Shown here: positions 771 through 21,072 of the stretch, piece after piece | Layout: the number at the start of each line of letters is the position of its first letter | Numbering within the stretch: the stretch's first letter is position 1 | From: a virus | Lineage: Duplodnaviria > Heunggongvirae > Uroviricota > Caudoviricetes | Length of the DNA stretch: 21,072 nucleotides | Strand: one strand, 5' to 3' | IMG/VR virus record: IMGVR_UViG_2648501437_000019 | Coordinates: 1 to 21,072 of that record | Made by a program: the position numbers and the translations under genes | The notes under the pieces: generated by a model | What the model was told of the DNA's origin: nothing | Seen by the model: only the letters and a program-made list of their open reading frames with translations | Database searches by the model: none

Positions 771-899
771 GTGTAATTAGCTTAATCAATCAGTTGATAA
801 TGGCGGTCACAATTTGATTCTTTTCTATAAGAATCCGTTGATCGCCACTACTCTTCTTCCATACCTGCAATCACACCTTTAAATATCAATAGGTTAGCG

Positions 900-1660
900 T
901 TGTTTATACCAATAAGAAAACAACTAAATAACAGATCAACGAAACGTCAACGCTTTCACCCGATTTGGTCTAAAAAATTGACGTTTTCACACATCACTGC
1001 TTATACCCGTAACTCTACGCAGCAGACAGCGCCACAGAGTCCAATTTTCACCACAGACGACTCAACACACTACCAACAAAAACACACGCTCAAAATCGCT
1101 CCCGCTGCGTTACACAACCATATAAACAACATATTTTCAGGTATAACAAAACAACTAAATAACACATATGCCATTCCCCAAAACAACCAACCTCTTTATG
1201 GCAGGCTACCGAAAAGACCCACCTCTTCTCCCCAGGCTACTGGACAACCAACCTAACTTTCACAGGCAATCCGAAAACATTCATACGCGCGATACCCACG
1301 ACACGCCATTCCCCAAACAGCGAAGAAACACCAGAATCACTGAAACCCCAACGAAGCCTGTAACCGCAAGGATTCTCTCAATCCCAAAAGACTCGAAGCA
1401 TAACAATCACGGGAAACGCCATTACCCAATACACGAATAACTACAAAAGCCTTTCACACACTCCAGACAAACAACTCAAACACAATAACGAAAGGAATCG
1501 CCCACCTGCCATTACTCCATACACGGAGAAGAACAATCACCAAAACGACGAGAACACCCCATAGAAGAACCACCGCAAAACGAACGAAACCACATACACC
1601 GACAGAGAAAACAACACACCCAATTCACCAACAGAAATAGTCGCCGTATAGAACATTCTG
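900..1660. other. G-depleted, A+C-rich non-coding tract
   Basis: The plus strand is about 77% A+C and 10% G in one hand-counted 60-nt stretch (1441-1500). The only ORFs (900-1256, 1168-1440) are low-complexity P/T/Q/N/H-rich with no SD; no minus-strand ORF of 60 aa or more. Contains a 16-bp direct repeat AAACAACTAAATAACA (about 917-932 and 1148-1163). Confidence 0.6.
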
Positions 1661-1752
1661 GAAGGAGTGAGCATTAACGCCTATAGAGAGGTTGAGACAG
1701 ATAAAACACAACATGTATAGCGAAGAAGCCAGGTATGTATAAGTGGGGAGGG

Positions 1753-1777
1753 AAGGAGGGGTGTCGCCTCCTTTTTC
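1753..1777 (+). terminator. putative intrinsic terminator
   Basis: Hairpin AAGGAGG (1753-1759), loop GGTGTCG, CCTCCTT (1767-1773), running into TTTTT (1772-1776). Confidence 0.5.
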
Positions 1778-1840
1778 GTATTTATTCAACTCCTGATTTT
1801 ATCCCCCCGTAACACCCCTACGGTCAGCCTTCGGTCCATA

Positions 1841-1976
1841 CAGGGAAAAGGCTGCATCCCGCTACAGAAACGGCTGGGTTGCCTTCGGGGAACGGCTGGA
1901 GGTTTTCAGGGAAACGGTCGAGTTGCCTGTGTGGATTTCGGGAAAAGGCTCGATGCCGGTTCAGGAACGGTGGCGT
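1841..1976. repeat. iteron-like array, six degenerate direct repeats of GGRAAMGG-CTG with 21-23 bp spacing
   Basis: CAGGGAAAAGGCTGCAT 1841-1857; AGAAACGGCTGGG 1866-1878; CGGGGAACGGCTGGA 1886-1900; CAGGGAAACGGTCGA 1907-1921; CGGGAAAAGGCTCGA 1939-1953; CAGGAACGGTGGCG 1962-1975. The AACGG/AAAGG cores sit at 1847, 1868, 1891, 1913, 1945 and 1966. Confidence 0.6.
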
Positions 1977-2285
1977 ACCGGTATAGCGAGAGGGAGAGTT
2001 GCGGCTACCCACCTGTAATGTGCGGGAAGAAGAGAGGCGCTCACGTAGGCGGACTTGCTTACCGCTGGATTCCCTCTGAATGCCCAGCTACAGCGTAATT
2101 GTGCCAGACAGCCAACGGGTCACAATCGATTTCAGTAGGTTTTCGGGGAGAGGATTATTCTGCCCACCAGCCACCTTCGGCCACTAAATCAGAATAATGT
2201 AAAAAGTATACTCGGTACTGAACCTGAAAACTCACTGCCAAAACCATATTCACCGGAATAAAATCCTTTTTCGCCTGTGCGTTAT

Positions 2286-2294
2286 TGCGATAAT
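2286..2294 (+). promoter_or_regulatory. candidate extended -10 promoter element (TGcGATAAT) upstream of the 2333 gene
   Basis: TGCGATAAT lies about 38 nt upstream of the ATG at 2333; no good -35. Sequence pattern only. Confidence 0.3.
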
Positions 2295-2332
2295 AACACC
2301 ATCAAGAAAACATGTTGTTTAAGGATTGCTTT

Positions 2333-2662
2333 ATGTTTGCAAATATCGACATCAACCAAATCAAGAAATTAACTCAAAAAGAGTTTGATCAGTTTTATGA
2401 GTTAGAAGGTTGGTCTTCCACTCTGATCAATTCAAGATGGGTGCTGGAACTGATGACTCGTGATGACGCACCTGCTTTGATAATTTGCGACATGGGTGAA
2501 GATGCTGACTTTATGGATATGAGCGAATTTTGTGTGGACACATACAACCGCAGCCAGAAGTACTACTTCACATGCGATAGCGAAAATGACGTGATTTCTA
2601 AGGTCTATCTTCACCTCGTCCAGCATTGGGACGTTCAGGAGTTTCTTGAAGTATTCGAGTAA
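2333..2662 (+). CDS. small acidic hypothetical protein (109 aa)
   Basis: ATG at 2333 preceded by AAGGAT SD; the upstream ATG at 2312 has no SD. About 22 D+E against about 8 K+R. Followed by a hairpin. Confidence 0.6.
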   Translation: MFANIDINQIKKLTQKEFDQFYELEGWSSTLINSRWVLELMTRDDAPALIICDMGEDADFMDMSEFCVDTYNRSQKYYFTCDSENDVISKVYLHLVQHWDVQEFLEVFE

Positions 2663-2671
2663 CCCCAACCA

Positions 2672-2698
2672 AAGCCAGCAATGCTGGCTTAATTTCTC
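2672..2698 (+). terminator. putative intrinsic terminator
   Basis: AAGCCAGC (2672-2679), loop AAT, GCTGGCTT (2683-2690), then AATTTCTC. Confidence 0.45.
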
Positions 2699-2815
2699 TA
2701 TAGCCGCAGGGAAGAACCTGCATATCGCTCATGCACCTGATCAATATGCTTTGTAGCCGTTTTCTTACTGGTATTATTTACGCCATTGAGAAAACAAGTT
2801 GTTTACGGAGTTGTA

Positions 2816-3127
2816 ATGAAAAAATCATTGGTTCTTGGTCTGGACAAAGACCAGAAGAGAAAAGAGAAGCCTGCGCTGGTTGCTCAATTAACTTTGCTGG
2901 ACATCGTTGCCAATGGAACCTCTATTCGTCTGTTCCGTGAAACAGCGGTGTCTTTCGATAAAAACACCTTTACTCGTTATGTAATGAATGTTCGTCGCCA
3001 GCGTGGAAAAGGCTGGGTGGCATTTCAAAGAATGTGGCCGGAACATCAGCTCGAACTGGCTTTGATGGAAGTTAACCGCGTGGCCCAGCAAGAGATTCAG
3101 AGAGCATCAGTGATGGCAATAGCCTGA
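2816..3127 (+). CDS. hypothetical protein (103 aa)
   Basis: ATG at 2816 with ACGGAG SD 5 nt upstream (the listed ORF starts at TTG 2786). Terminator immediately downstream. Confidence 0.6.
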   Translation: MKKSLVLGLDKDQKRKEKPALVAQLTLLDIVANGTSIRLFRETAVSFDKNTFTRYVMNVRRQRGKGWVAFQRMWPEHQLELALMEVNRVAQQEIQRASVMAIA

Positions 3128-3161
3128 TAATGTGCAAGTGGCAATTAGTCGACAGTACGAC

Positions 3162-3190
3162 AGCCCCGCCATCCTTACGGGGCTTTTTTG
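3162..3190 (+). terminator. intrinsic terminator
   Basis: AGCCCCG (3162-3168), 9-nt loop, CGGGGCT (3178-3184), followed by TTTTTT. Confidence 0.7.
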
Positions 3191-3253
3191 TATTGTAAGT
3201 ACATACTTACGATCATAGAATATAAAAATAACCAATACACTACGGAGAGTGAA

Positions 3254-3649
3254 ATGACCGTTAAACGCGAAAAACTGACAGTTGATGTTTACTATGCCTC
3301 TGAAACCGCCGAAGGTAAGAATGTGGCAAAAATCACCGTTGTTACGTACAACACCGAAACTGGTGCCGAAGTCCAGGCCAGTACGATCGTGCGTAAAGGT
3401 GATGCCTCCGGCGGCGAGTACGCGACTCAATACCAGTCCATTCTCGATGCAACTGACCCGCTGCTGCTGAAAATCGAGAACTACTTCCGCCAGGTTGATG
3501 AAGAGGTGTTTGAAACCATGATGAATATGGTTAACACCGTATTCGCCTCCAGCCTGAATACCAACACTACCTGGATTGGTCAGTACGGCCTGCGCATTAC
3601 CTCTGGCATTCCTGCCGACACCTTAATCCCTGAAAGCGTATTCGCTTAA
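3254..3649 (+). CDS. hypothetical protein (131 aa)
   Basis: ATG at 3254 with GGAGAG SD at 3244-3249; the listed ORF start at 3188 lies in the upstream terminator region. Confidence 0.65.
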   Translation: MTVKREKLTVDVYYASETAEGKNVAKITVVTYNTETGAEVQASTIVRKGDASGGEYATQYQSILDATDPLLLKIENYFRQVDEEVFETMMNMVNTVFASSLNTNTTWIGQYGLRITSGIPADTLIPESVFA

Positions 3650-3657
3650 TCCTCTTT

Positions 3658-3686
3658 AAATGGCGCGTAAACCGCGCCATTTTATT
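3658..3686 (+). terminator. intrinsic terminator
   Basis: AAATGGCGCG (3658-3667), loop TAAAC, CGCGCCATTT (3673-3682), then TTTTATT. Confidence 0.7.
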
Positions 3687-3766
3687 AAGCCCGATAACAA
3701 TTTGTTTTCTGCCTTATCTGATTTGTGAAAATGATTTCACTGAAGCAACTTAATAAGGAAACCATC

Positions 3767-4141
3767 ATGGGACTTGATATCTATATCGAGACACAGCCTA
3801 AAAACGATCTGAATAACGAGGCATCCAGAAAGCAGGTTGCTTACTTCCGTAAGTTCAATGCGCTCGTTGGGTGGATGGAGCGCAACGTAGGTGAAGTCGA
3901 AAATTGTGAGCTTTTAGAATTAACGATGAATGACATTTGTTTTCTGAAGGCTCATTTGATGCACATAAACGAAAGTAATTGCGAAGAGTACTTGCCTACC
4001 CGGGAAGGTTTTTTCTTCGGCAGTCAGGAGTACGATGAAGGTTACTGGCATGATGTGGGGCAGTTGAAAGAGCTTGTGGAAGATCTGATTAAGAACCACG
4101 ACTTTCACAATAACAGACTGACCTTCTGCGCCTGGTGGTAA
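3767..4141 (+). CDS. hypothetical protein (124 aa), acidic
   Basis: ATG at 3767 with AAGGA SD at 3755-3759 (the listed ORF starts at GTG 3725). Confidence 0.6.
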   Translation: MGLDIYIETQPKNDLNNEASRKQVAYFRKFNALVGWMERNVGEVENCELLELTMNDICFLKAHLMHINESNCEEYLPTREGFFFGSQEYDEGYWHDVGQLKELVEDLIKNHDFHNNRLTFCAWW

Positions 4142-4143
4142 AT

Positions 4144-4287
4144 ATGGGCGATTTCAAGAAACGCCTGAAGGAAAGAGCCGAGATGGTCAGAAAGCAAAAC
4201 GCCTCTTCTGTCATCAGATACGCAAGGCAGTTTAGTCGCAACAACAAATCAGTTGAGGAAAAGATCCTTAGCGTAATCGTGCGATAA
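4144..4287 (+). CDS. candidate small basic protein (47 aa), not in the ORF track
   Basis: ATG at 4144, 2 nt after the stop of the 3767-4141 gene, so tightly coupled. Translation MGDFKKRLKERAEMVRKQNASSVIRYARQFSRNNKSVEEKILSVIVR, stop TAA 4285-4287, followed by a hairpin (4291-4318). Confidence 0.35.
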   Translation: MGDFKKRLKERAEMVRKQNASSVIRYARQFSRNNKSVEEKILSVIVR

Positions 4288-4491
4288 TTATTAAGGCCAT
4301 CAGCATTGGTGGCCTTAAATGACCATCTTGTTTCCCGCAGGCTAAAAACACCAACCTCTTACCTCCAGGCAACCGACAAACCCACCTGTTCCCGTCCGGC
4401 TACCGCAACTTTCCACTTTGACGCCTTATTCGTACAACGATAATTAACACCAACAAGAAAACAATTTGTTATTTACGATAAGGAATTAATC

Positions 4492-4974
4492 ATGAATTTT
4501 ATCGCTACTGTAAACGCACCCGCACATGGCAATATCGCTGTAACGTTCTCTGACATTGAAAAACGAGTACTTGGTGCATGGCGCGACAATGAGACGGTAG
4601 AACTGTCAGCACAAGAAAAATGCATTATTGCACGCGACATCATTGGCAATCGTCGTTACTCGCGGGTATTTGAGAAAGCGTATGTGGTAAATTCTGGATT
4701 CGGAACGTTCGTCTTTCCGGTGCGCTCCGGGCGATTCTGCCAGTCCAAGCTGATTGAGTTCGCTACGCAGATTTCTGTCTGGATTAAAACTCAATCGTCG
4801 TTCAAATTTTCCGACGATGAAGCAGTATCGCAGGGGATGCGGATCGCCAACAATGCAATTAAATGCAAAAACATTACGTATACCGCTGGCGTTGATACAT
4901 GGAAACTGTTTTGCGCTAACTTTATGCTGAATGTATACGCAAGCAACCGCATCCACATCCTTGATGGCGTGTAA
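4492..4974 (+). CDS. hypothetical protein (160 aa)
   Basis: ATG at 4492 with AAGGAATTAATC-ATG SD; followed by a hairpin. Confidence 0.65.
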   Translation: MNFIATVNAPAHGNIAVTFSDIEKRVLGAWRDNETVELSAQEKCIIARDIIGNRRYSRVFEKAYVVNSGFGTFVFPVRSGRFCQSKLIEFATQISVWIKTQSSFKFSDDEAVSQGMRIANNAIKCKNITYTAGVDTWKLFCANFMLNVYASNRIHILDGV

Positions 4975-4982
4975 CTGAGAAG

Positions 4983-5008
4983 AGGGCCAGAAACGGCCCT
5001 TTCTCTAT
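4983..5008 (+). terminator. putative intrinsic terminator
   Basis: AGGGCC (4983-4988), loop AGAAAC, GGCCCT (4995-5000), then TTCTCTAT. The 13-mer TTTCTCTATAGCC after it also follows the 2672-2690 hairpin (2693-2705). Confidence 0.5.
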
Positions 5009-5023
5009 AGCCACCAGCTGCCG

Positions 5024-5105
5024 CAGGGAAATTTTCAGAAGCGGCGAGGAACGTATTCATGAGCCGACGGGGAACGGCCAGGATTTTTTCGGGAAACGGC
5101 TGCAT
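5024..5105. repeat. second iteron-like array, same repeat family as 1841-1976
   Basis: CAGGGAAATTTT 5024-5035; CGAGGAACGTATT 5045-5057; CGGGGAACGGCCA 5068-5080; CGGGAAACGGCTGCAT 5090-5105. Cores about 21-24 bp apart. Confidence 0.55.
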
Positions 5106-5230
5106 TTGCCTTTGTGTAGAAAAAAACATCGGGAAGCTGGTGGAATCCAACCAGCGGTTGTCGGACAGGTGAGCGGGGAAAATTATGATGACTTTCGTCA
5201 CCTGAGACATCCAGATTTCTTTCGTAGCAT

Positions 5231-5273
5231 AATCACATACGTGATTAAGTGGTGTGATTATGTGAAAAATCAC
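5231..5273. promoter_or_regulatory. operator-like cluster of AATCAC/GTGATT half-sites
   Basis: AATCAC-ATAC-GTGATT palindrome at 5231-5246; further half-sites GTGATT at 5254-5259 and AATCAC at 5268-5273. Confidence 0.4.
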
Positions 5274-5504
5274 GCGCACATAATACGCGAGCGGATACGG
5301 AACAAAACAAAATGCCGATCCGCGCCGACAAATAAACGCGGATCATAAAGCAAGACTAAAAGCCAATGATTAACTATGCGCTATAACGCGTTTTAAGCGC
5401 GTTAATGTGTTAAGTAATGGGTATGTACTGGCAAGGATATAAAAGCGCGTCTATGGCGTTATTTTGGCGCTTATTTTTATGTTGTTGGAGTGAGTTAAAG
5501 ACAA

Positions 5505-5530
5505 TAAAAAACGCGCCATCAATGGCGCGT
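5505..5530 (-). terminator. intrinsic terminator, minus strand
   Basis: GC-rich palindrome ACGCGCCAT/ATGGCGCGT (5511-5530) preceded on the plus strand by AAAAAA, which is a U-run after the hairpin on the minus strand. Confidence 0.55.
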
Positions 5531-5551
5531 TATTGTGGAAGTATTGGAAAC

Positions 5552-5576
5552 GAAAAAAGCGCCCATAGTGGGCGCT
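5552..5576 (-). terminator. intrinsic terminator, minus strand (possibly bidirectional)
   Basis: AGCGCCCA-TAG-TGGGCGCT (5558-5576), flanked by AAAAAA on the plus-strand 5' side and CGATTTTATTTG on the 3' side. Lies just downstream of the stop at 5582 on the minus strand. Confidence 0.6.
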
Positions 5577-5581
5577 CGATT

Positions 5582-5812
5582 TTATTTGTGTAAACTGATT
5601 TTAAATCCCATTTCTACGAACGCTTTTAACATTAAAAATATATCAGCGTCGTTCACGTCTGCTTTTTTTCGCTCCTGGTCGCTCAATAAGTCAATTTTGC
5701 GCGTCGTTTCATCTATAAGCTCGACTACGCGCCCAGCGTAACCAGCGATCCCAGCGATGCGATTAACATAATATTCATTATGGACGTTAACGCCAGCGAT
5801 AAGAACAAACAT
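5582..5812 (-). CDS. small hypothetical protein (76 aa)
   Basis: ATG at 5812 preceded on the minus strand by AAGGAG 8 nt upstream; terminator downstream. Confidence 0.55.
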   Translation of the reverse strand: MFVLIAGVNVHNEYYVNRIAGIAGYAGRVVELIDETTRKIDLLSDQERKKADVNDADIFLMLKAFVEMGFKISLHK

Positions 5813-6085: not shown

Positions 6086-6736
6086 TTACGCTTTGAAAGC
6101 ATCAGCTAAATAATTGTAGAAATCATTTTTAATGAAGCGATATTGCTGAGTACCAGCTTTTGCACTCCCAGCTCCTTTGACTTTTTCAACAAGTCCAAGA
6201 CGTTCGCAAAGATTGATCAACTGGTTGGCTTGAGTATAGCCAGCGTCCAATTTAATTTCACACGCTTTTTTAGCTTCATTCATTAAATCGAAAACAGCGC
6301 CATTGGTGAACGTGTCGATCTCGTCGTTAATCATATCGATTAAAGCGAATACACGAGATCCTGACATATCAGCGACGGAATAAACACATTTACCAGCTTT
6401 AATGGATTTAACCAGATAAACCAGTTTTTCCAGTGAATAACTATTAGTCATTGCATCACGGAAAAATACTTCTGGCGCTTGTTTGCTTGCTTTAATCGCA
6501 TAGTAGAAAACAGAGCATAATTTTTCGTCTTCTACTGCGTTTACGACGTTGTTGATGAAGTAAGCAAGTTTAGTGGTCGCAGCTTGCATATTTGCTTTGT
6601 CTGCTTTAGTGTGCGTACCATTTTTATAATGTTCGTTATATGTTTGAGTTGCCAGATCTGCTTTTTCGCGCAGCTCGTCGGATACAATAGATGCAGCTTC
6701 AATGATGGACTTTTTAGAAATGATAATGTTAGCCAT
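6086..6736 (-). CDS. hypothetical protein (216 aa)
   Basis: ATG at 6736 (MANIIISKK...) with AAGGA SD 7 nt upstream on the minus strand; the listed ORF start at 6811 lacks an SD. Confidence 0.65.
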   Translation of the reverse strand: MANIIISKKSIIEAASIVSDELREKADLATQTYNEHYKNGTHTKADKANMQAATTKLAYFINNVVNAVEDEKLCSVFYYAIKASKQAPEVFFRDAMTNSYSLEKLVYLVKSIKAGKCVYSVADMSGSRVFALIDMINDEIDTFTNGAVFDLMNEAKKACEIKLDAGYTQANQLINLCERLGLVEKVKGAGSAKAGTQQYRFIKNDFYNYLADAFKA

Positions 6737-6984
6737 GATAATATCCTTACGAAAAATTAAAATGAATTTATTTTTTACTGTCGTTAGCCAGCTCGCTTTC
6801 GACGAGTTCAATTATCGATACGTGAAAAAAGATTGCAAGTGTTTTTTTAAATTTTTTGCAGGGGTGAAAGCCCTAGAAATAAAAGAGAGAGCGTCGAAGG
6901 TGTTCCCTAAATAAATAATCAATTCGGGCCTTTAACCTTATATATTTATACGGGGTGGCATTGAAAGAGTTTTAAATGAATGGC

Positions 6985-7017
6985 ATGTAAAATAATAACC
7001 GGACTTAGCCGGTTATT
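6985..7017 (-). terminator. putative terminator, minus strand
   Basis: AATAACCGG (6994-7002), loop ACTTAG, CCGGTTATT (7009-7017), followed on the minus strand by an A/U-rich stretch. Confidence 0.4.
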
Positions 7018-7029
7018 ACCCTTATAGAT

Positions 7030-7554
7030 TTAAAATGGAAGGATTCGTTCAACCCAATCGAAGAAAACAAGTATTTTTCTGCCGTCTTCTAACTTAAGAG
7101 TGACCTGGCAAGCATCAACGCCTCTTGACACCCCTTCAATTTCACGACCGTCTGCCATGTAGACCCTTATAGATTGGTCGTTTTGATAAGCCTTGCGACA
7201 TATCGCAAAAAAGTCACGGCGTGATGGCTGATTGTCAACATAGTCTGGATGTATTGTTAGCCTACCTTTGAACTCGCGAGCAATGCCATCGATTACACCT
7301 GATTCAATTGTGCTAATGCGCTCAAGTGGGAGTCTTATACGATTTTCTTTATCATATGGAAGCGGGCATAAATCTAGCTTATTGCGGGAAGGCATTGTCC
7401 CCTGAACGTACATGCAAAACACCTGACCGTCTTCAAGCGTGACTCTTACAGGAATGTTGTTCTTCCGCCAGAACATAAGTATGTTTTCAGCATGTTCGTA
7501 GTCTCGCGGCCAGACTTCAGCCGGTATGCCGTAGGTGATGTCCGATGTTCTCAT
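7030..7554 (-). CDS. hypothetical cytoplasmic protein (174 aa)
   Basis: The start ATG overlaps the upstream stop (ATGA at 7551-7554), so it is translationally coupled. Confidence 0.6.
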   Translation of the reverse strand: MRTSDITYGIPAEVWPRDYEHAENILMFWRKNNIPVRVTLEDGQVFCMYVQGTMPSRNKLDLCPLPYDKENRIRLPLERISTIESGVIDGIAREFKGRLTIHPDYVDNQPSRRDFFAICRKAYQNDQSIRVYMADGREIEGVSRGVDACQVTLKLEDGRKILVFFDWVERILPF

Positions 7555-8150
7555 TCTGATACTCTTAGAGGTGTTTTCAGCAACCCAAATTTAAATTCTT
7601 TGTTACCAACGACAAAGAAGGGAACCTCAACATAGATTTTTTTATCGACGGATTTAGAGTTCGCTGTTTTCTGTATGTCACGAACGATACGTTTTGAGGT
7701 ATTTTCATCGATAAACAATACCTTTCCACTTGTATTCCCTTCAGCCTTGGCGTAAGTAACGATAGGGTCTTCATTGCCAACCCTAATGTTTACTTGGCAA
7801 CCTGTTGTAGCCATTTCATCACAGTAAAGTGTGCCGTCTTGAACTTCTAAAACAATTCCAGATGGCTTCATGGCTTCGTCAGAGCTTACATTAACGTTTT
7901 CTGGTACAGCGGTCCCGTTAATTTGCAACCGTAATCTTTCTTTTCCTCCATTAAGTATTGTTTCTTCTGCGTTGTCTGAGAATCTGAACCAAACTGGCTG
8001 ATTCAGACCTCGTGATTTGTATTCTACTACATCTTCGGAGGTAAACATGCTGTACGTTTTTTGCATGTCAGAGGCGAAATCTGATAATGCGTTGGCGGAA
8101 AACGCCGGGAGGCATATACAAGCAAGGAGTAACGAAAGTTTCATTTTCAT
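7551..8150 (-). CDS. hypothetical secreted protein with N-terminal signal peptide (about 199 aa precursor)
   Basis: MKMKLSLLLACICLPAFSANA-LSD: basic n-region, hydrophobic core, AxA-type cleavage motif (ANA). The listed start at 8165 is TTG, so ATG 8150 is preferred. Confidence 0.6.
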   Translation of the reverse strand: MKMKLSLLLACICLPAFSANALSDFASDMQKTYSMFTSEDVVEYKSRGLNQPVWFRFSDNAEETILNGGKERLRLQINGTAVPENVNVSSDEAMKPSGIVLEVQDGTLYCDEMATTGCQVNIRVGNEDPIVTYAKAEGNTSGKVLFIDENTSKRIVRDIQKTANSKSVDKKIYVEVPFFVVGNKEFKFGLLKTPLRVSE

Positions 8151-9431: not shown

Positions 9432-9710
9432 TTACGGCAACCTGCTCAGTATTTCCTCTAAATCTTTTTTTGTCATATTGGAGTTTTCATAGATGCGCAT
9501 GATTTTCTCACGCGTCTTAGCGGAAACCCCAACGGCAGATGTGACTTTGTCAAATTCAGCCATAGTCATCGTCTCCAGAATGGCATTGATAACTTCAGCC
9601 TTAGACATCTTGATTTTTTTCTCTTTGAGTTTTATTTGGAATTTTCCAAGTTTTTCATTGGCCTTATCAGACAATGCCACTTGGCAATAAGTTGTTTTCT
9701 TTTCGCTCAT
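9432..9710 (-). CDS. small hypothetical protein (92 aa)
   Basis: ATG 2 nt after the helicase stop codon; lysine-rich. No confident motif. Confidence 0.55.
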   Translation of the reverse strand: MSEKKTTYCQVALSDKANEKLGKFQIKLKEKKIKMSKAEVINAILETMTMAEFDKVTSAVGVSAKTREKIMRIYENSNMTKKDLEEILSRLP

Positions 9711-14261: not shown

Positions 14262-14528
14262 ATGACGTTAACCGATAAACAAAAGGACATCATCAAAACG
14301 CTCAATCTCGGTTATGAGCGAGGTCATCTACTTGACCTGGACGAATTGCTTGAAGTTTTGCCGTACAAGACAACCAAGCAAAGTATCCAGTTCTCAATTC
14401 GCGCTCTGATAAAAAAGGGGCTGGTGGAGAAAGGGCATACGCGCCAACGCAGTGACAATCGCTATCACCGCCGAACTCTTGGGTTAACCACTTTAGGTCG
14501 AGCCAAAGCGAAGTTACTGGTGATGTAA
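14262..14528 (+). CDS. small winged-helix-like DNA-binding protein (88 aa)
   Basis: AAGGA SD 6 nt upstream of the ATG; helix-turn-helix-like segment QSIQFSIRALIKKGLVEKG followed by a basic tail. Confidence 0.5.
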   Translation: MTLTDKQKDIIKTLNLGYERGHLLDLDELLEVLPYKTTKQSIQFSIRALIKKGLVEKGHTRQRSDNRYHRRTLGLTTLGRAKAKLLVM

Positions 14529-20096: not shown

Positions 20097-20585
20097 ATGC
20101 CAGAACAAAAGATGAAGATTACGGAAGAGGCATTTTCGGATTTTACGGGGCATATGTGCCGTGCCGGATTTACCAATTCTATCTCCGATGAACCTTTAAC
20201 CGAGCGGCAACAAAGTCAGCTATCTGCTTGTTTGCAGGCGGTTCCCCTCTCCCAATCCGTAAACATAACCCCGGCTTCACCGTCAGTTTTGGTTGGGAAA
20301 ACTGTTCAACTTAGTGCAGGTATTAGTATGGGTAAGAGTGCCAGTTCATTCACCTGGAAGTCAGCAAATGACCAAATTGCAACCGTTAATGGCACTGGAT
20401 TAGTAACTGGCGTAGCACCAGGCAAAGTAAAAATTACTGCAACTGATCAGGAAACCCAGCTTTCCGCGTCAGTGGAAGTCACCGTAAATCCGGTAGCCGT
20501 TCAATCCGTAACGGTAACGCCAGACTCAACCTCTGTTGAGAAAGGGAAATCAGTCAGTCTGAAAGCGAATGTTCAGCCGTCAAAT

Positions 20586-20588
<3 letters not shown>
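20097..20588 (+). pseudogene. Ig-like (Big_2) domain structural protein, 3'-truncated by IS insertion
   Basis: Big_2-like repeats (TVQLSAG..., FTWKSANDQIATVNGTGLVTGVAPGKVKITATDQ; a second repeat begins AVQSVTVTPDS). The reading frame ends at TGA 20586-20588, which is the first 3 nt of the IS terminus. Confidence 0.7.

Positions 20589-21072
<484 letters not shown>

What the first reader, a model, noticed from the sequence alone, without database searches (positions are those of the whole stretch)
1841..1976. Iteron-like array of six GGRAAMGG-CTG repeats at about 22-bp periodicity
Six degenerate direct repeats with core spacings of 21, 23, 22, 32 and 21 bp (about two helical turns) sit in a 1.5-kb gene-free region. 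A DnaA-box-like 9-mer TGTGGATTT (1930-1938) lies inside the array and TTATCCCCC (1799-1807) lies just upstream. The same family recurs as a second array at 5024-5105 and as a single copy at 2706-2723, so the two arrays bracket the 2333-4974 gene block. This is the architecture expected for a replication origin or a multi-site binding platform for a phage DNA-binding protein, rather than for promoters.
Basis: seen in the sequence. Interest (0 to 1): 0.6.

Follow-up and report, generated by a model that had tools for sequence, protein, structure and literature searches.

The report
Conserved paired protein-binding repeat arrays
The six repeats are real and are kept, with a second array about 3 kb away, in hundreds of SSU5-type phage-plasmids, so they are most likely docking sites on the DNA for an unidentified protein; they are not the plasmid's replication origin, which lies elsewhere.

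Summary
The window is an SSU5-like phage-plasmid, 94-98% identical to Escherichia phages CMS-2020a, Cyrano and PhiR41_1. The array at 1841-1973 is real: six same-strand copies of yMGGRAAMGGcTG, spaced 22, 22, 22, 31 and 22 bp. Shuffled sequence never gave more than 3 clustered cores. A second array (5024-5105) has the same core and orientation. Both arrays sit at the same map positions in Escherichia, Salmonella (SSU5, pHCM2), Klebsiella, Enterobacter, Citrobacter and Cronobacter relatives. Cores are nearly invariant and spacers vary freely. In the about 102 kb of the Cyrano genome that was scanned, no other site scores above 15 bits. There is no RNA structure and no Rfam hit.

The origin reading is not supported. 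The plasmid origin (RepA, 21-bp iterons CTCTCTATAGTGG, DnaA boxes) lies about 33 kb away. The DnaA-like 9-mers here are not conserved. No AT-rich unwinding element adjoins the arrays. Y. pestis pMT1 has lost array 1 yet is maintained.

Best reading: paired multi-site DNA platforms for one unidentified sequence-specific protein, acting in phage mode. Whether they regulate or insulate the flanked small-gene block or act in lytic replication is unresolved. The single copy at 2706 is doubtful.

The parts
1841..1973 (+). Array 1: six units of yMGGRAAMGGcTG. The 14-nt units start at 1841, 1863, 1885, 1907, 1938 and 1960, spaced 22, 22, 22, 31 and 22 bp.
   Evidence: Seen in the sequence. PWM scores are 11.3-18.7 bits. 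Clustering exceeds all shuffles. The array is conserved in all SSU5-like relatives examined.
5024..5105 (+). Array 2: same core and same strand. Strong units lie at 5067-5080 and 5089-5102; degenerate units lie at about 5026 and 5047.
   Evidence: The layout TTCAGAAACGG, 33/34 bp, AMGGGAAACGGCCA, 22 bp, TCGGGAAACGGCKG is kept in most relatives, including Y. pestis pMT1. In this window the first unit is degenerate, and in the Klebsiella loci L005, L013 and L043 it falls below the PWM cut-off.
2706..2723 (+). Claimed single copy (CGCAGGGAAGAACCTGCA): doubtful member of the family.
   Evidence: It lacks the invariant GG of the core, falls below the PWM threshold, and is not conserved in SSU5.
1797..1840 (+). 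Conserved block just upstream of array 1 (TTTTATCCCCCCGTAAC ... CGGTCAGCCTTCGG).
   Evidence: Alignment of 17 relatives. The CCCGTAAC part is nearly invariant; the TTATCC part is not.
771..2332 (.). Conserved gene-free region that holds array 1.
   Evidence: No conserved ORF. Plasmid annotations of the relatives examined list no gene in the matching gap; Cyrano and PhiR41_1 annotate short hypothetical ORFs there. Alignment indels are not multiples of three.
978..1007 (+). Sigma-70-like promoter candidate: TTGACG, 17 nt, TTATAC (or 18 nt, TATACC).
   Evidence: Read from the sequence and conserved in all relatives. The consensus scan does not report it.
1010..1660 (+). A+C-rich, G-poor stretch with GCCATTACCCAATACACGGAGAAGAAC-type repeats.
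   Evidence: GC skew -0.39 to -0.54 and AT skew +0.29 to +0.60 over 901-1600. Conserved across the family. At the expression floor in the LF82 lysogen.
1750..1777 (+). Terminator-like hairpin plus T-run upstream of array 1, present in the E. coli lineage only.
   Evidence: The hairpin is not kept in SSU5-type sequences.
1180..1276 (+). Second repeat family (family B): ACCnACCTCTTnnnnnCAGGCTACCG, three copies at 30-31 bp.
   Evidence: families D1, D2; conserved.
4317..4409 (+). Family B repeats again, three copies, directly upstream of the promoter of the 160-aa gene.
   Evidence: Also present in SSU5, pMT1 and L042.
2333..4974 (+). Block of small genes between the arrays: 2333-2662, 2816-3127, 3254-3649, 3767-4141, 4144-4287 and 4492-4974. 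All are of unknown function.
   Evidence: No Pfam family; PHROG families of unknown function. The 160-aa protein gives a confident model with no fold match. The 103-aa basic protein is a weak candidate binder.
5011..5018 (-). Chi (GCTGGTGG on the minus strand) just left of array 2.
   Evidence: Kept in most lineages.
5136..5143 (+). Chi (GCTGGTGG) right of array 2, pointing inwards.
   Evidence: Present within about 150 bp of the array in most lineages although the flanks diverge; mutated in pMT1.

Best explanation
The two arrays are cis-acting docking platforms on double-stranded DNA for one sequence-specific protein of the phage-plasmid.

Proposed mechanism:
- Each asymmetric 9-10 bp core (RGGRAAMGG) is one site for a monomer or a head-to-tail subunit.
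- The roughly two-turn spacing places neighbouring sites on about the same face of the helix, so bound subunits can contact each other and fill the array cooperatively.
- The two arrays have the same polarity and lie 2.3-5.1 kb apart in different relatives. They can then be bridged, looping out the block of small genes between them.
- The platform serves the phage side of the element's life: control or insulation of the flanked gene block, or phage-mode replication. It does not serve plasmid replication or partition.

Shown: the repeats, their non-random clustering, their conservation, their confinement to two clusters in the Cyrano genome scanned, their strand polarity, the absence of RNA structure, the separate location of the plasmid origin, and the dispensability of array 1 for plasmid maintenance.

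Inferred: that a protein binds, that binding is cooperative, that the arrays are bridged, and what the biological output is.
For: - Clustering is far beyond chance.
- In 29 distinct units from 8 lineages, the seven core positions G-R-A-A-M-G-G are invariant or limited to two bases (G in 28 of 29 units at the first), while spacers are close to free.
- Number, order and spacing of units are kept from Escherichia to Cronobacter.
- Length changes come in helical or unit steps. A 9-bp spacer difference separates the Escherichia/Salmonella type from the Klebsiella type. PhiR41_1 lacks one unit of array 1 (its first spacing is 21 rather than 22 bp), and its record names E. coli K-12 MG1655 as host.
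- Only two clusters above 15 bits occur in the about 102 kb of the Cyrano genome scanned.
- No RNA signal: fold z-scores are -0.06 and +0.80, the consensus structure is weak, and there is no Rfam match.
- The region matches 716 (array 1) and 762-766 (array 2) plasmid records; in the rows listed, no gene lies under the array-only queries.
- Plasmid functions are elsewhere: RepA with its iterons lies at 60.6-62.4 kb of Cyrano and ParA at 29.3 kb.
- pMT1 lacks array 1.
Against: - In the most divergent relative (L042) the cores persist but the spacing is 28, 24 and 34 bp. Strict helical phasing is therefore not universal.
- All copies in both arrays lie on the transcribed strand of the neighbouring genes. 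This would also fit a linear RNA motif.
- Bridging of the two arrays is pure inference.
Confidence: 0.55

Rival explanations
1. The arrays are the iterons of the phage-mode (lytic) replication origin, separate from the RepA plasmid origin. An unidentified initiator binds array 1, with array 2 as a distant cis partner as in P4 ori/crr or SPP1 oriL/oriR. The upstream promoter and long untranslated A+C-rich transcript would give transcriptional activation or priming, as in T4, T7 or lambda.
For: - The architecture is iteron-like and there are two clusters.
- The element carries its own DnaB-like helicase, primase, Pol III alpha, gp32-like SSB, UvsX/RecA, UvsY and UvsW, yet has no mapped lytic origin and no recognisable initiator.
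- A conserved promoter-like site and a 650-bp strand-asymmetric non-coding stretch lie just upstream.
- Array 1 is dispensable in the plasmid state.
- Among known phage and plasmid elements, phased direct-repeat arrays are most often origins (general knowledge).
Against: - The arrays are 57-58% GC with no adjoining AT-rich unwinding element.
- The DnaA-like boxes are not conserved.
- No initiator gene lies next to the arrays.
- GC skew is monotonic across the arrays.
- Spacing is irregular in L042.
- Another candidate cis site exists: an 18-bp perfect inverted repeat with an AT-rich centre beside the helicase and primase genes.
Confidence: 0.2
2. The motif acts in RNA. The arrays are transcribed as the leader of the first small gene and the 3' end of the last one, and repeated purine-rich GGRAAMGG motifs bind or titrate an RNA-binding protein. 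One candidate is the FljA-like protein encoded at 7030-7554.
For: - All copies in both arrays lie on the sense strand of the neighbouring genes.
- The FljA-like protein (PF03614, E 5e-81, with a weak Hfq-like hit) is kept in L042 and in the Klebsiella relative L043. Klebsiella lacks flagella (general knowledge), so this protein needs a target other than flagellin mRNA.
- FljA-type repressors act on mRNA (PMC2652032).
Against: - There is no structure or covariation and no Rfam hit.
- Flanking CAG/CTG bases do not covary (units listed).
- In several lineages each array follows a terminator-like hairpin.
- Transcription of the array region is near background in the lysogen.
- Spacing kept at helical or unit steps has no obvious meaning in RNA.
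Confidence: 0.1
3. The arrays are centromere-like partition or plasmid-pairing sites, comparable to parC1/parC2 flanking a par operon.
For: Two arrays of direct repeats bracket a gene block. A degraded 62-kb E. albertii derivative, in which none of the 52 features listed is a capsid, tail or terminase gene, still keeps both arrays.
Against: - The ParA gene lies at 29.3 kb of Cyrano, far from the arrays.
- No ATPase lies between the arrays.
- pMT1 is stably maintained without array 1.
Confidence: 0.07
4. The repeats are a neutral remnant of local duplication with no present function.
For: Unit-length gain or loss occurs, as in PhiR41_1.
Against: Core positions stay invariant while spacers diverge across at least six genera and in a relative whose neighbouring protein is only 51% identical. 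Two separate loci keep the same core.
Confidence: 0.03

Closest known systems
Phage-plasmid P4 ori / crr (type I iterons bound by the alpha primase-helicase); recalled from the literature, not tested here
   Same: Two clusters of the same short direct repeat lie several kb apart on one replicon and are thought to be bridged by one protein.
   Different: The P4 octamer TGTTCACC is unrelated. The binder in P4 is a known primase-helicase. Here no binder is known and no replication function is shown.
P1 / RepFIB-type plasmid origin with flanking iteron arrays (oriR / incA)
   Same: Phased direct repeats of about 21-22 bp form two arrays that bracket genes.
   Different: This element has exactly such a replicon elsewhere: RepA with CTCTCTATAGTGG iterons, DnaA boxes and GATC clusters. 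The arrays studied here have a different motif, no Rep gene, no DnaA boxes and no AT-rich region.
Type Ib partition centromeres flanking a par operon (pB171 parC1/parC2)
   Same: Repeat arrays lie on both sides of a small gene block.
   Different: No ParA or centromere-binding gene lies between the arrays. One array is dispensable in pMT1.
Lambda cosB R sites bound by the small terminase subunit gpNu1 (from memory the R sites contain GGAAACG)
   Same: The same 7-mer core occurs in several copies as a protein-binding site.
   Different: The cos site and terminase genes of this element lie about 9-12 kb away, near window 14590. No such sites were found there. The resemblance is a lead only.

Membership tests
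Iteron-type replication origin | Several direct repeats of 17-22 bp period in one orientation | tested here: met
   Six units at 22/31 bp in array 1 and units at 21-22 bp in array 2.
Iteron-type replication origin | Adjoining A+T-rich DNA unwinding element | tested here: not met
   The array windows are 0.565-0.585 GC. The nearest AT-rich stretch (0.335 GC) lies at least 200 bp away and holds the next gene's promoter.
Iteron-type replication origin | Conserved DnaA box or other host-factor sites | tested here: not met
Iteron-type replication origin | Initiator (Rep) gene next to or containing the iterons | tested here: not met
   No Rep-type domain occurs in any flanking ORF. The RepA gene lies about 33 kb away with a different iteron motif.
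Iteron-type replication origin | Supports autonomous replication, or exerts incompatibility | not testable with these tools
   This needs cloning and replication assays. Indirect evidence: pMT1 replicates without array 1.
Partition centromere (parC/parS-type repeats) | Adjacent to the partition ATPase and centromere-binding genes, and autoregulatory | tested here: not met
   ParA lies at Cyrano 29307-29975. Its upstream region carries the dispersed palindrome, not this motif.
Partition centromere (parC/parS-type repeats) | Needed for stable inheritance | tested here: inconclusive
   Array 1 is absent from pMT1, which is maintained, but array 2 is retained there.
Structured or sponge non-coding RNA (CsrB-like) | Conserved secondary structure that presents the motif in hairpin loops | tested here: not met
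   Fold z-scores are -0.06 and +0.80. The consensus fold is -13.8 kcal/mol over 246 columns. There is no Rfam hit.
Lambda-type operator clusters (OL/OR) flanking an immunity block | Palindromic sites overlapping promoters | tested here: not met
   The cores are asymmetric and no promoter-like site overlaps the arrays. A separate dispersed palindrome, GAAAACAAnTTGTTT, fills that role.

The most novel reading that the evidence does not exclude
Array 1, together with the upstream promoter and its 650-nt G-poor transcript, and with array 2 as a distant partner flanked by inward-pointing Chi sites, forms the unmapped phage-mode origin of SSU5-type phage-plasmids. This would be a second replicon that combines iteron-like sites with T4-style transcript- and recombination-dependent initiation. 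It would be switched on at induction, while the RepA origin serves the plasmid state.
Probability: 0.15. Interest if true: 0.7.

Novelty: new member of a known kind. Interest (0 to 1): 0.45.

Why it matters
SSU5-type phage-plasmids are common in clinical Escherichia, Klebsiella, Enterobacter and Salmonella. The group includes pHCM2 of S. Typhi and is related to pMT1 of Y. pestis. Papers returned by the literature searches describe phage-plasmids in general as carriers of resistance genes. How these elements switch between plasmid and phage life is largely unknown. A conserved pair of binding-site arrays, with no gene annotated under them in the plasmid records examined and sitting in a large non-coding region, gives a concrete handle. 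Finding the binder would reveal either a regulator of the early gene block or the lytic origin. The arrays are also a simple DNA marker for this family.

Tried and rejected
- **Rfam scan of the whole window:** only two sub-threshold chance hits, far from the arrays.
- **RNA folding of both strands and consensus folding of 17 relatives:** no signal.
- **CsrA-type GGA sponge:** rejected. The invariant positions are GRAAMGG, some units lack GGA, and no hairpins form.
- **Sigma-54 promoters and IHF sites:** looked for by eye; spacing and consensus do not fit.
- **RepA iterons:** the motif is different. The TCTCTATAG words beside the copy at 2706 and beside array 2 occur only in the E. coli lineage.
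- **Segmental duplication of an array-gene-array unit:** only the repeat families align. The A+C-rich region is not a decayed copy of the 160-aa gene.
- **Structure prediction of the 160-aa and 103-aa proteins:** no convincing fold match.
- **Profile search of the 103-aa family:** 17 proteins at E-value 0.001 or better in 1.8 billion representatives, so no remote homologues.
- **Pattern scan of viral contigs:** returned SSU5-like contigs plus unrelated perfect tandem repeats selected by the pattern itself.
- **Literature:** no paper found on this region. Searches for the motif gave only primers. The key comparative paper (PMC5800970) and one preprint are not held.
- **Acinetobacter relatives:** too divergent to align.
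- **afdb50 fold library:** unavailable.

Full report
**What the window is.** Megablast places the window in SSU5-like phage-plasmids. It is 94-98% identical to Escherichia phages CMS-2020a, Cyrano (the plasmid prophage of E. coli LF82) and PhiR41_1. Parts are about 82% identical to Salmonella phage SSU5 and about 80% to Klebsiella relatives. The SSU5 and Cyrano records end at about window 14590, just upstream of the terminase genes. The finding therefore lies 9-13 kb from the right end of the phage map.

**The observation.**
- The six repeats are in the sequence as described. In register they read CAGGGAAAAGGCTG, TACAGAAACGGCTG, TCGGGGAACGGCTG, CAGGGAAACGGTCG, TCGGGAAAAGGCTC and TTCAGGAACGGTGG.
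- They start at 1841, 1863, 1885, 1907, 1938 and 1960, all on the + strand, with spacings of 22, 22, 22, 31 and 22 bp.
- Exact GGRAAMGG occurs 7 times in 21 kb against 2.16 expected, and 6 of the 7 lie in the two arrays.
- Six loose cores within 140 bp on one strand compare with a maximum of 2 in 1000 dinucleotide-preserving shuffles of the window, and a maximum of 3 in 2000 shuffles of the local G-rich segment.
- The second array (5024-5105) has two strong units and two degenerate ones, on the same strand.
- The 'single copy' at 2706-2723 lacks the invariant GG, falls below the position-weight-matrix (PWM) threshold and is not kept in SSU5. I do not count it.

**Conservation.**
- The region 1700-2250 matches 716 plasmid records and the array 2 region matches 762-766. 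In the rows listed, no gene is annotated under the array-only queries.
- I fetched relatives from E. coli, S. enterica (SSU5, pHCM2), K. pneumoniae, K. oxytoca, E. hormaechei, C. freundii and C. sakazakii, plus viral contigs.
- All have a non-coding gap of about 1.4-2 kb at the same map position, with array 1 inside it. Array 2 lies just after the conserved 160-aa gene.
- In 29 distinct units the core G-R-A-A-M-G-G is invariant or two-state, while the spacer columns carry little information.
- Unit order and the 22/22/22/31/22 spacing are identical from Escherichia to Citrobacter.
- Klebsiella has 22 bp where the others have 31, a 9-bp change of about one helical turn. Cronobacter has three units.
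- PhiR41_1, whose record names E. coli K-12 MG1655 as host, lacks one unit of array 1 (spacings 21, 22, 31, 22).
- The most divergent relative found (L042, whose 160-aa protein is 51% identical) keeps both arrays on the same strand, but spaced 28, 24 and 34 bp. The motif is therefore more strongly conserved than the phasing.
- A PWM scan of about 102 kb of the Cyrano genome finds sites above 15 bits only in these two clusters.

**DNA or RNA.** There is no Rfam match. Single-sequence folds of either strand are no better than shuffles (z = -0.06 and +0.80). The consensus fold of 17 relatives is weak, at -13.8 kcal/mol over 246 columns. The partly conserved CAG and CTG flanks do not covary (units). 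In the LF82 lysogen transcriptome, the ORF call over the A+C-rich region is at the floor and the one over array 1 is near background (PMC9928086, supplementary table). Invariant asymmetric cores, free spacers and length changes in unit or helical steps point to protein recognition of duplex DNA. A linear RNA motif cannot be excluded, because every copy lies on the sense strand of the neighbouring genes.

**Is it the origin?**
- The plasmid replicon is plainly elsewhere. In Cyrano, RepA (CYRAN_63, 60.6-61.7 kb) is flanked by arrays of 21-bp iterons (CTCTCTATAGTGGWT), TGTGGATAA boxes and GATC clusters. PLSDB types all but two of the relatives fetched as IncFIB. That motif is unrelated to the one studied here.
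- The partition ATPase lies at 29.3 kb.
- The arrays are 57-58% GC and no AT-rich element adjoins them.
- Genome-wide cumulative GC skew rises almost monotonically with gene orientation and shows no inflection at the arrays. The only strong local dip is the A+C-rich stretch itself.
- In Y. pestis pMT1, an IS1541 copy sits where the A+C-rich region, array 1 and most of the small genes would be. The 160-aa gene and array 2 remain. Array 1 is therefore not needed for plasmid replication or segregation.
- A phage-mode origin remains possible. The element has its own helicase, primase, Pol III alpha and T4-like recombination proteins, and no recognisable initiator. Nothing beyond the iteron-like look supports this role, and another candidate cis site lies beside the helicase gene.

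**Surroundings.**
- The flanked genes (109, 103, 131, 124, 47 and 160 aa) have no Pfam family and fall in PHROGs of unknown function.
- Several have a sigma-70-like promoter followed by the palindrome GAAAACAAnTTGTTT. That palindrome occurs about 18 times across the genome at operon starts, including terS, parA and the helicase gene. It is probably the operator of a master regulator, so the arrays are a different kind of site.
- A second repeat family (CCCACCTCTT-N-CAGGCTACCG, 30-31 bp period, three copies) occurs at 1180-1276 and again at 4317-4409, directly upstream of the promoter of the 160-aa gene.
- Array 2 sits in a convergent intergenic region. In most lineages it is flanked by Chi sites that point inwards (5011-5018 on the minus strand, 5136-5143 on the plus strand), although the flanking sequence diverges.

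**Search for a binder.**
- The family of the 103-aa protein has only 17 members at E-value 0.001 or better among 1.8 billion representative proteins.
- This protein is a weak candidate and no more. Other untested candidates are the 47-aa basic peptide, the 92-aa protein at 9432-9710, the 88-aa protein at 14262-14528 and the two ParB_N proteins.

**Verdict.** The arrays are best read as paired multi-site DNA-binding platforms for an unidentified protein, working like iterons or centromere repeats: cooperative binding to phased direct repeats, possibly with bridging of the two arrays. They fail the defining tests for an iteron origin, a par centromere, an operator cluster and a structured RNA. 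Their role belongs to the phage side of the element. Whether it is control or insulation of the flanked gene block or phage-mode replication cannot be decided from sequence.

Noticed in passing
window 1010-1660 (promoter-like site at 978-1007): A 650-bp A+C-rich, G-poor non-coding stretch (GC skew down to -0.54, AT skew up to +0.60) lies downstream of a conserved TTGACG-17-TTATAC site. It carries four or five GCCATTACCCAATACACGGAGAAGAAC-type repeats. It is conserved across the family and silent in the LF82 lysogen.
   Followed up: partly
window 1180-1276 and 4317-4409: A second direct-repeat family (ACCnACCTCTT-N5-CAGGCTACCG, 30-31 bp period, three copies each) occurs in two places. The second array abuts the promoter of the 160-aa gene. 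It is conserved in SSU5, pMT1 and the divergent relative.
   Followed up: partly
window 1124, 2306, 2790, 3693, 4457, 14644, 14669; about 18 sites in Cyrano: The palindrome GAAAACAAnTTGTTT is dispersed over the genome at operon starts (terS, parA, helicase, the small genes), just downstream of sigma-70-like promoters. It looks like the operator set of a master regulator, as with the C1 operators of P1.
   Followed up: partly
window 5011-5018 (-), 5136-5143 (+), 2164-2171 (-): Chi sites point inwards on both sides of array 2 and are kept in most lineages although the flanks diverge. They are mutated in pMT1 and absent in L042. Overall Chi density (23 in 102 kb) is about ten times the base-composition expectation; one per 4.4 kb is, from memory, close to the E. 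coli chromosomal density.
   Followed up: partly
window 7030-7554 (-): An FljA-like 'repressor of phase-1 flagellin' (PF03614, E 5e-81, with a weak Hfq-like hit) is kept in L042 and in the Klebsiella relative L043. Klebsiella has no flagella (general knowledge), so its real target may lie on the element itself.
   Followed up: no
L045 (Y. pestis pMT1, NZ_CP033692) 4838-5705: An IS1541 copy sits where the segment holding the A+C-rich region, array 1 and most small genes would be. The 160-aa gene and array 2 are retained.
   Followed up: yes
[not shown]
   Followed up: partly
window 20583-21072: The last 490 bases are 95-98% identical to IS911/IS3-family sequence found in Shigella phages Sf6 and SfII. 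This indicates an insertion sequence at the end of the window.
   Followed up: no
L011 (Cyrano) 31157-31213: A perfect 18-bp inverted repeat with an AT-rich centre lies between two unknown genes just upstream of the DnaB-like helicase and primase. It is another candidate cis-acting site.
   Followed up: no
L046 (A. baumannii p5683_2) 6463-7814: A distant relative (TerL 59% identical) has a 1.35-kb non-coding, A-rich region (AT skew about +0.34) full of TAGATAGA / ATGTAGAAA repeats, upstream of the same helicase and ParB_N block. The motif is unrelated.
   Followed up: partly
window 2694-2704 and 5003-5013: TCTCTATAGCC words, matching the left half of the RepA iteron CTCTCTATAGTGG, precede the copy at 2706 and array 2. 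This occurs in the E. coli lineage only and is probably chance.
   Followed up: partly
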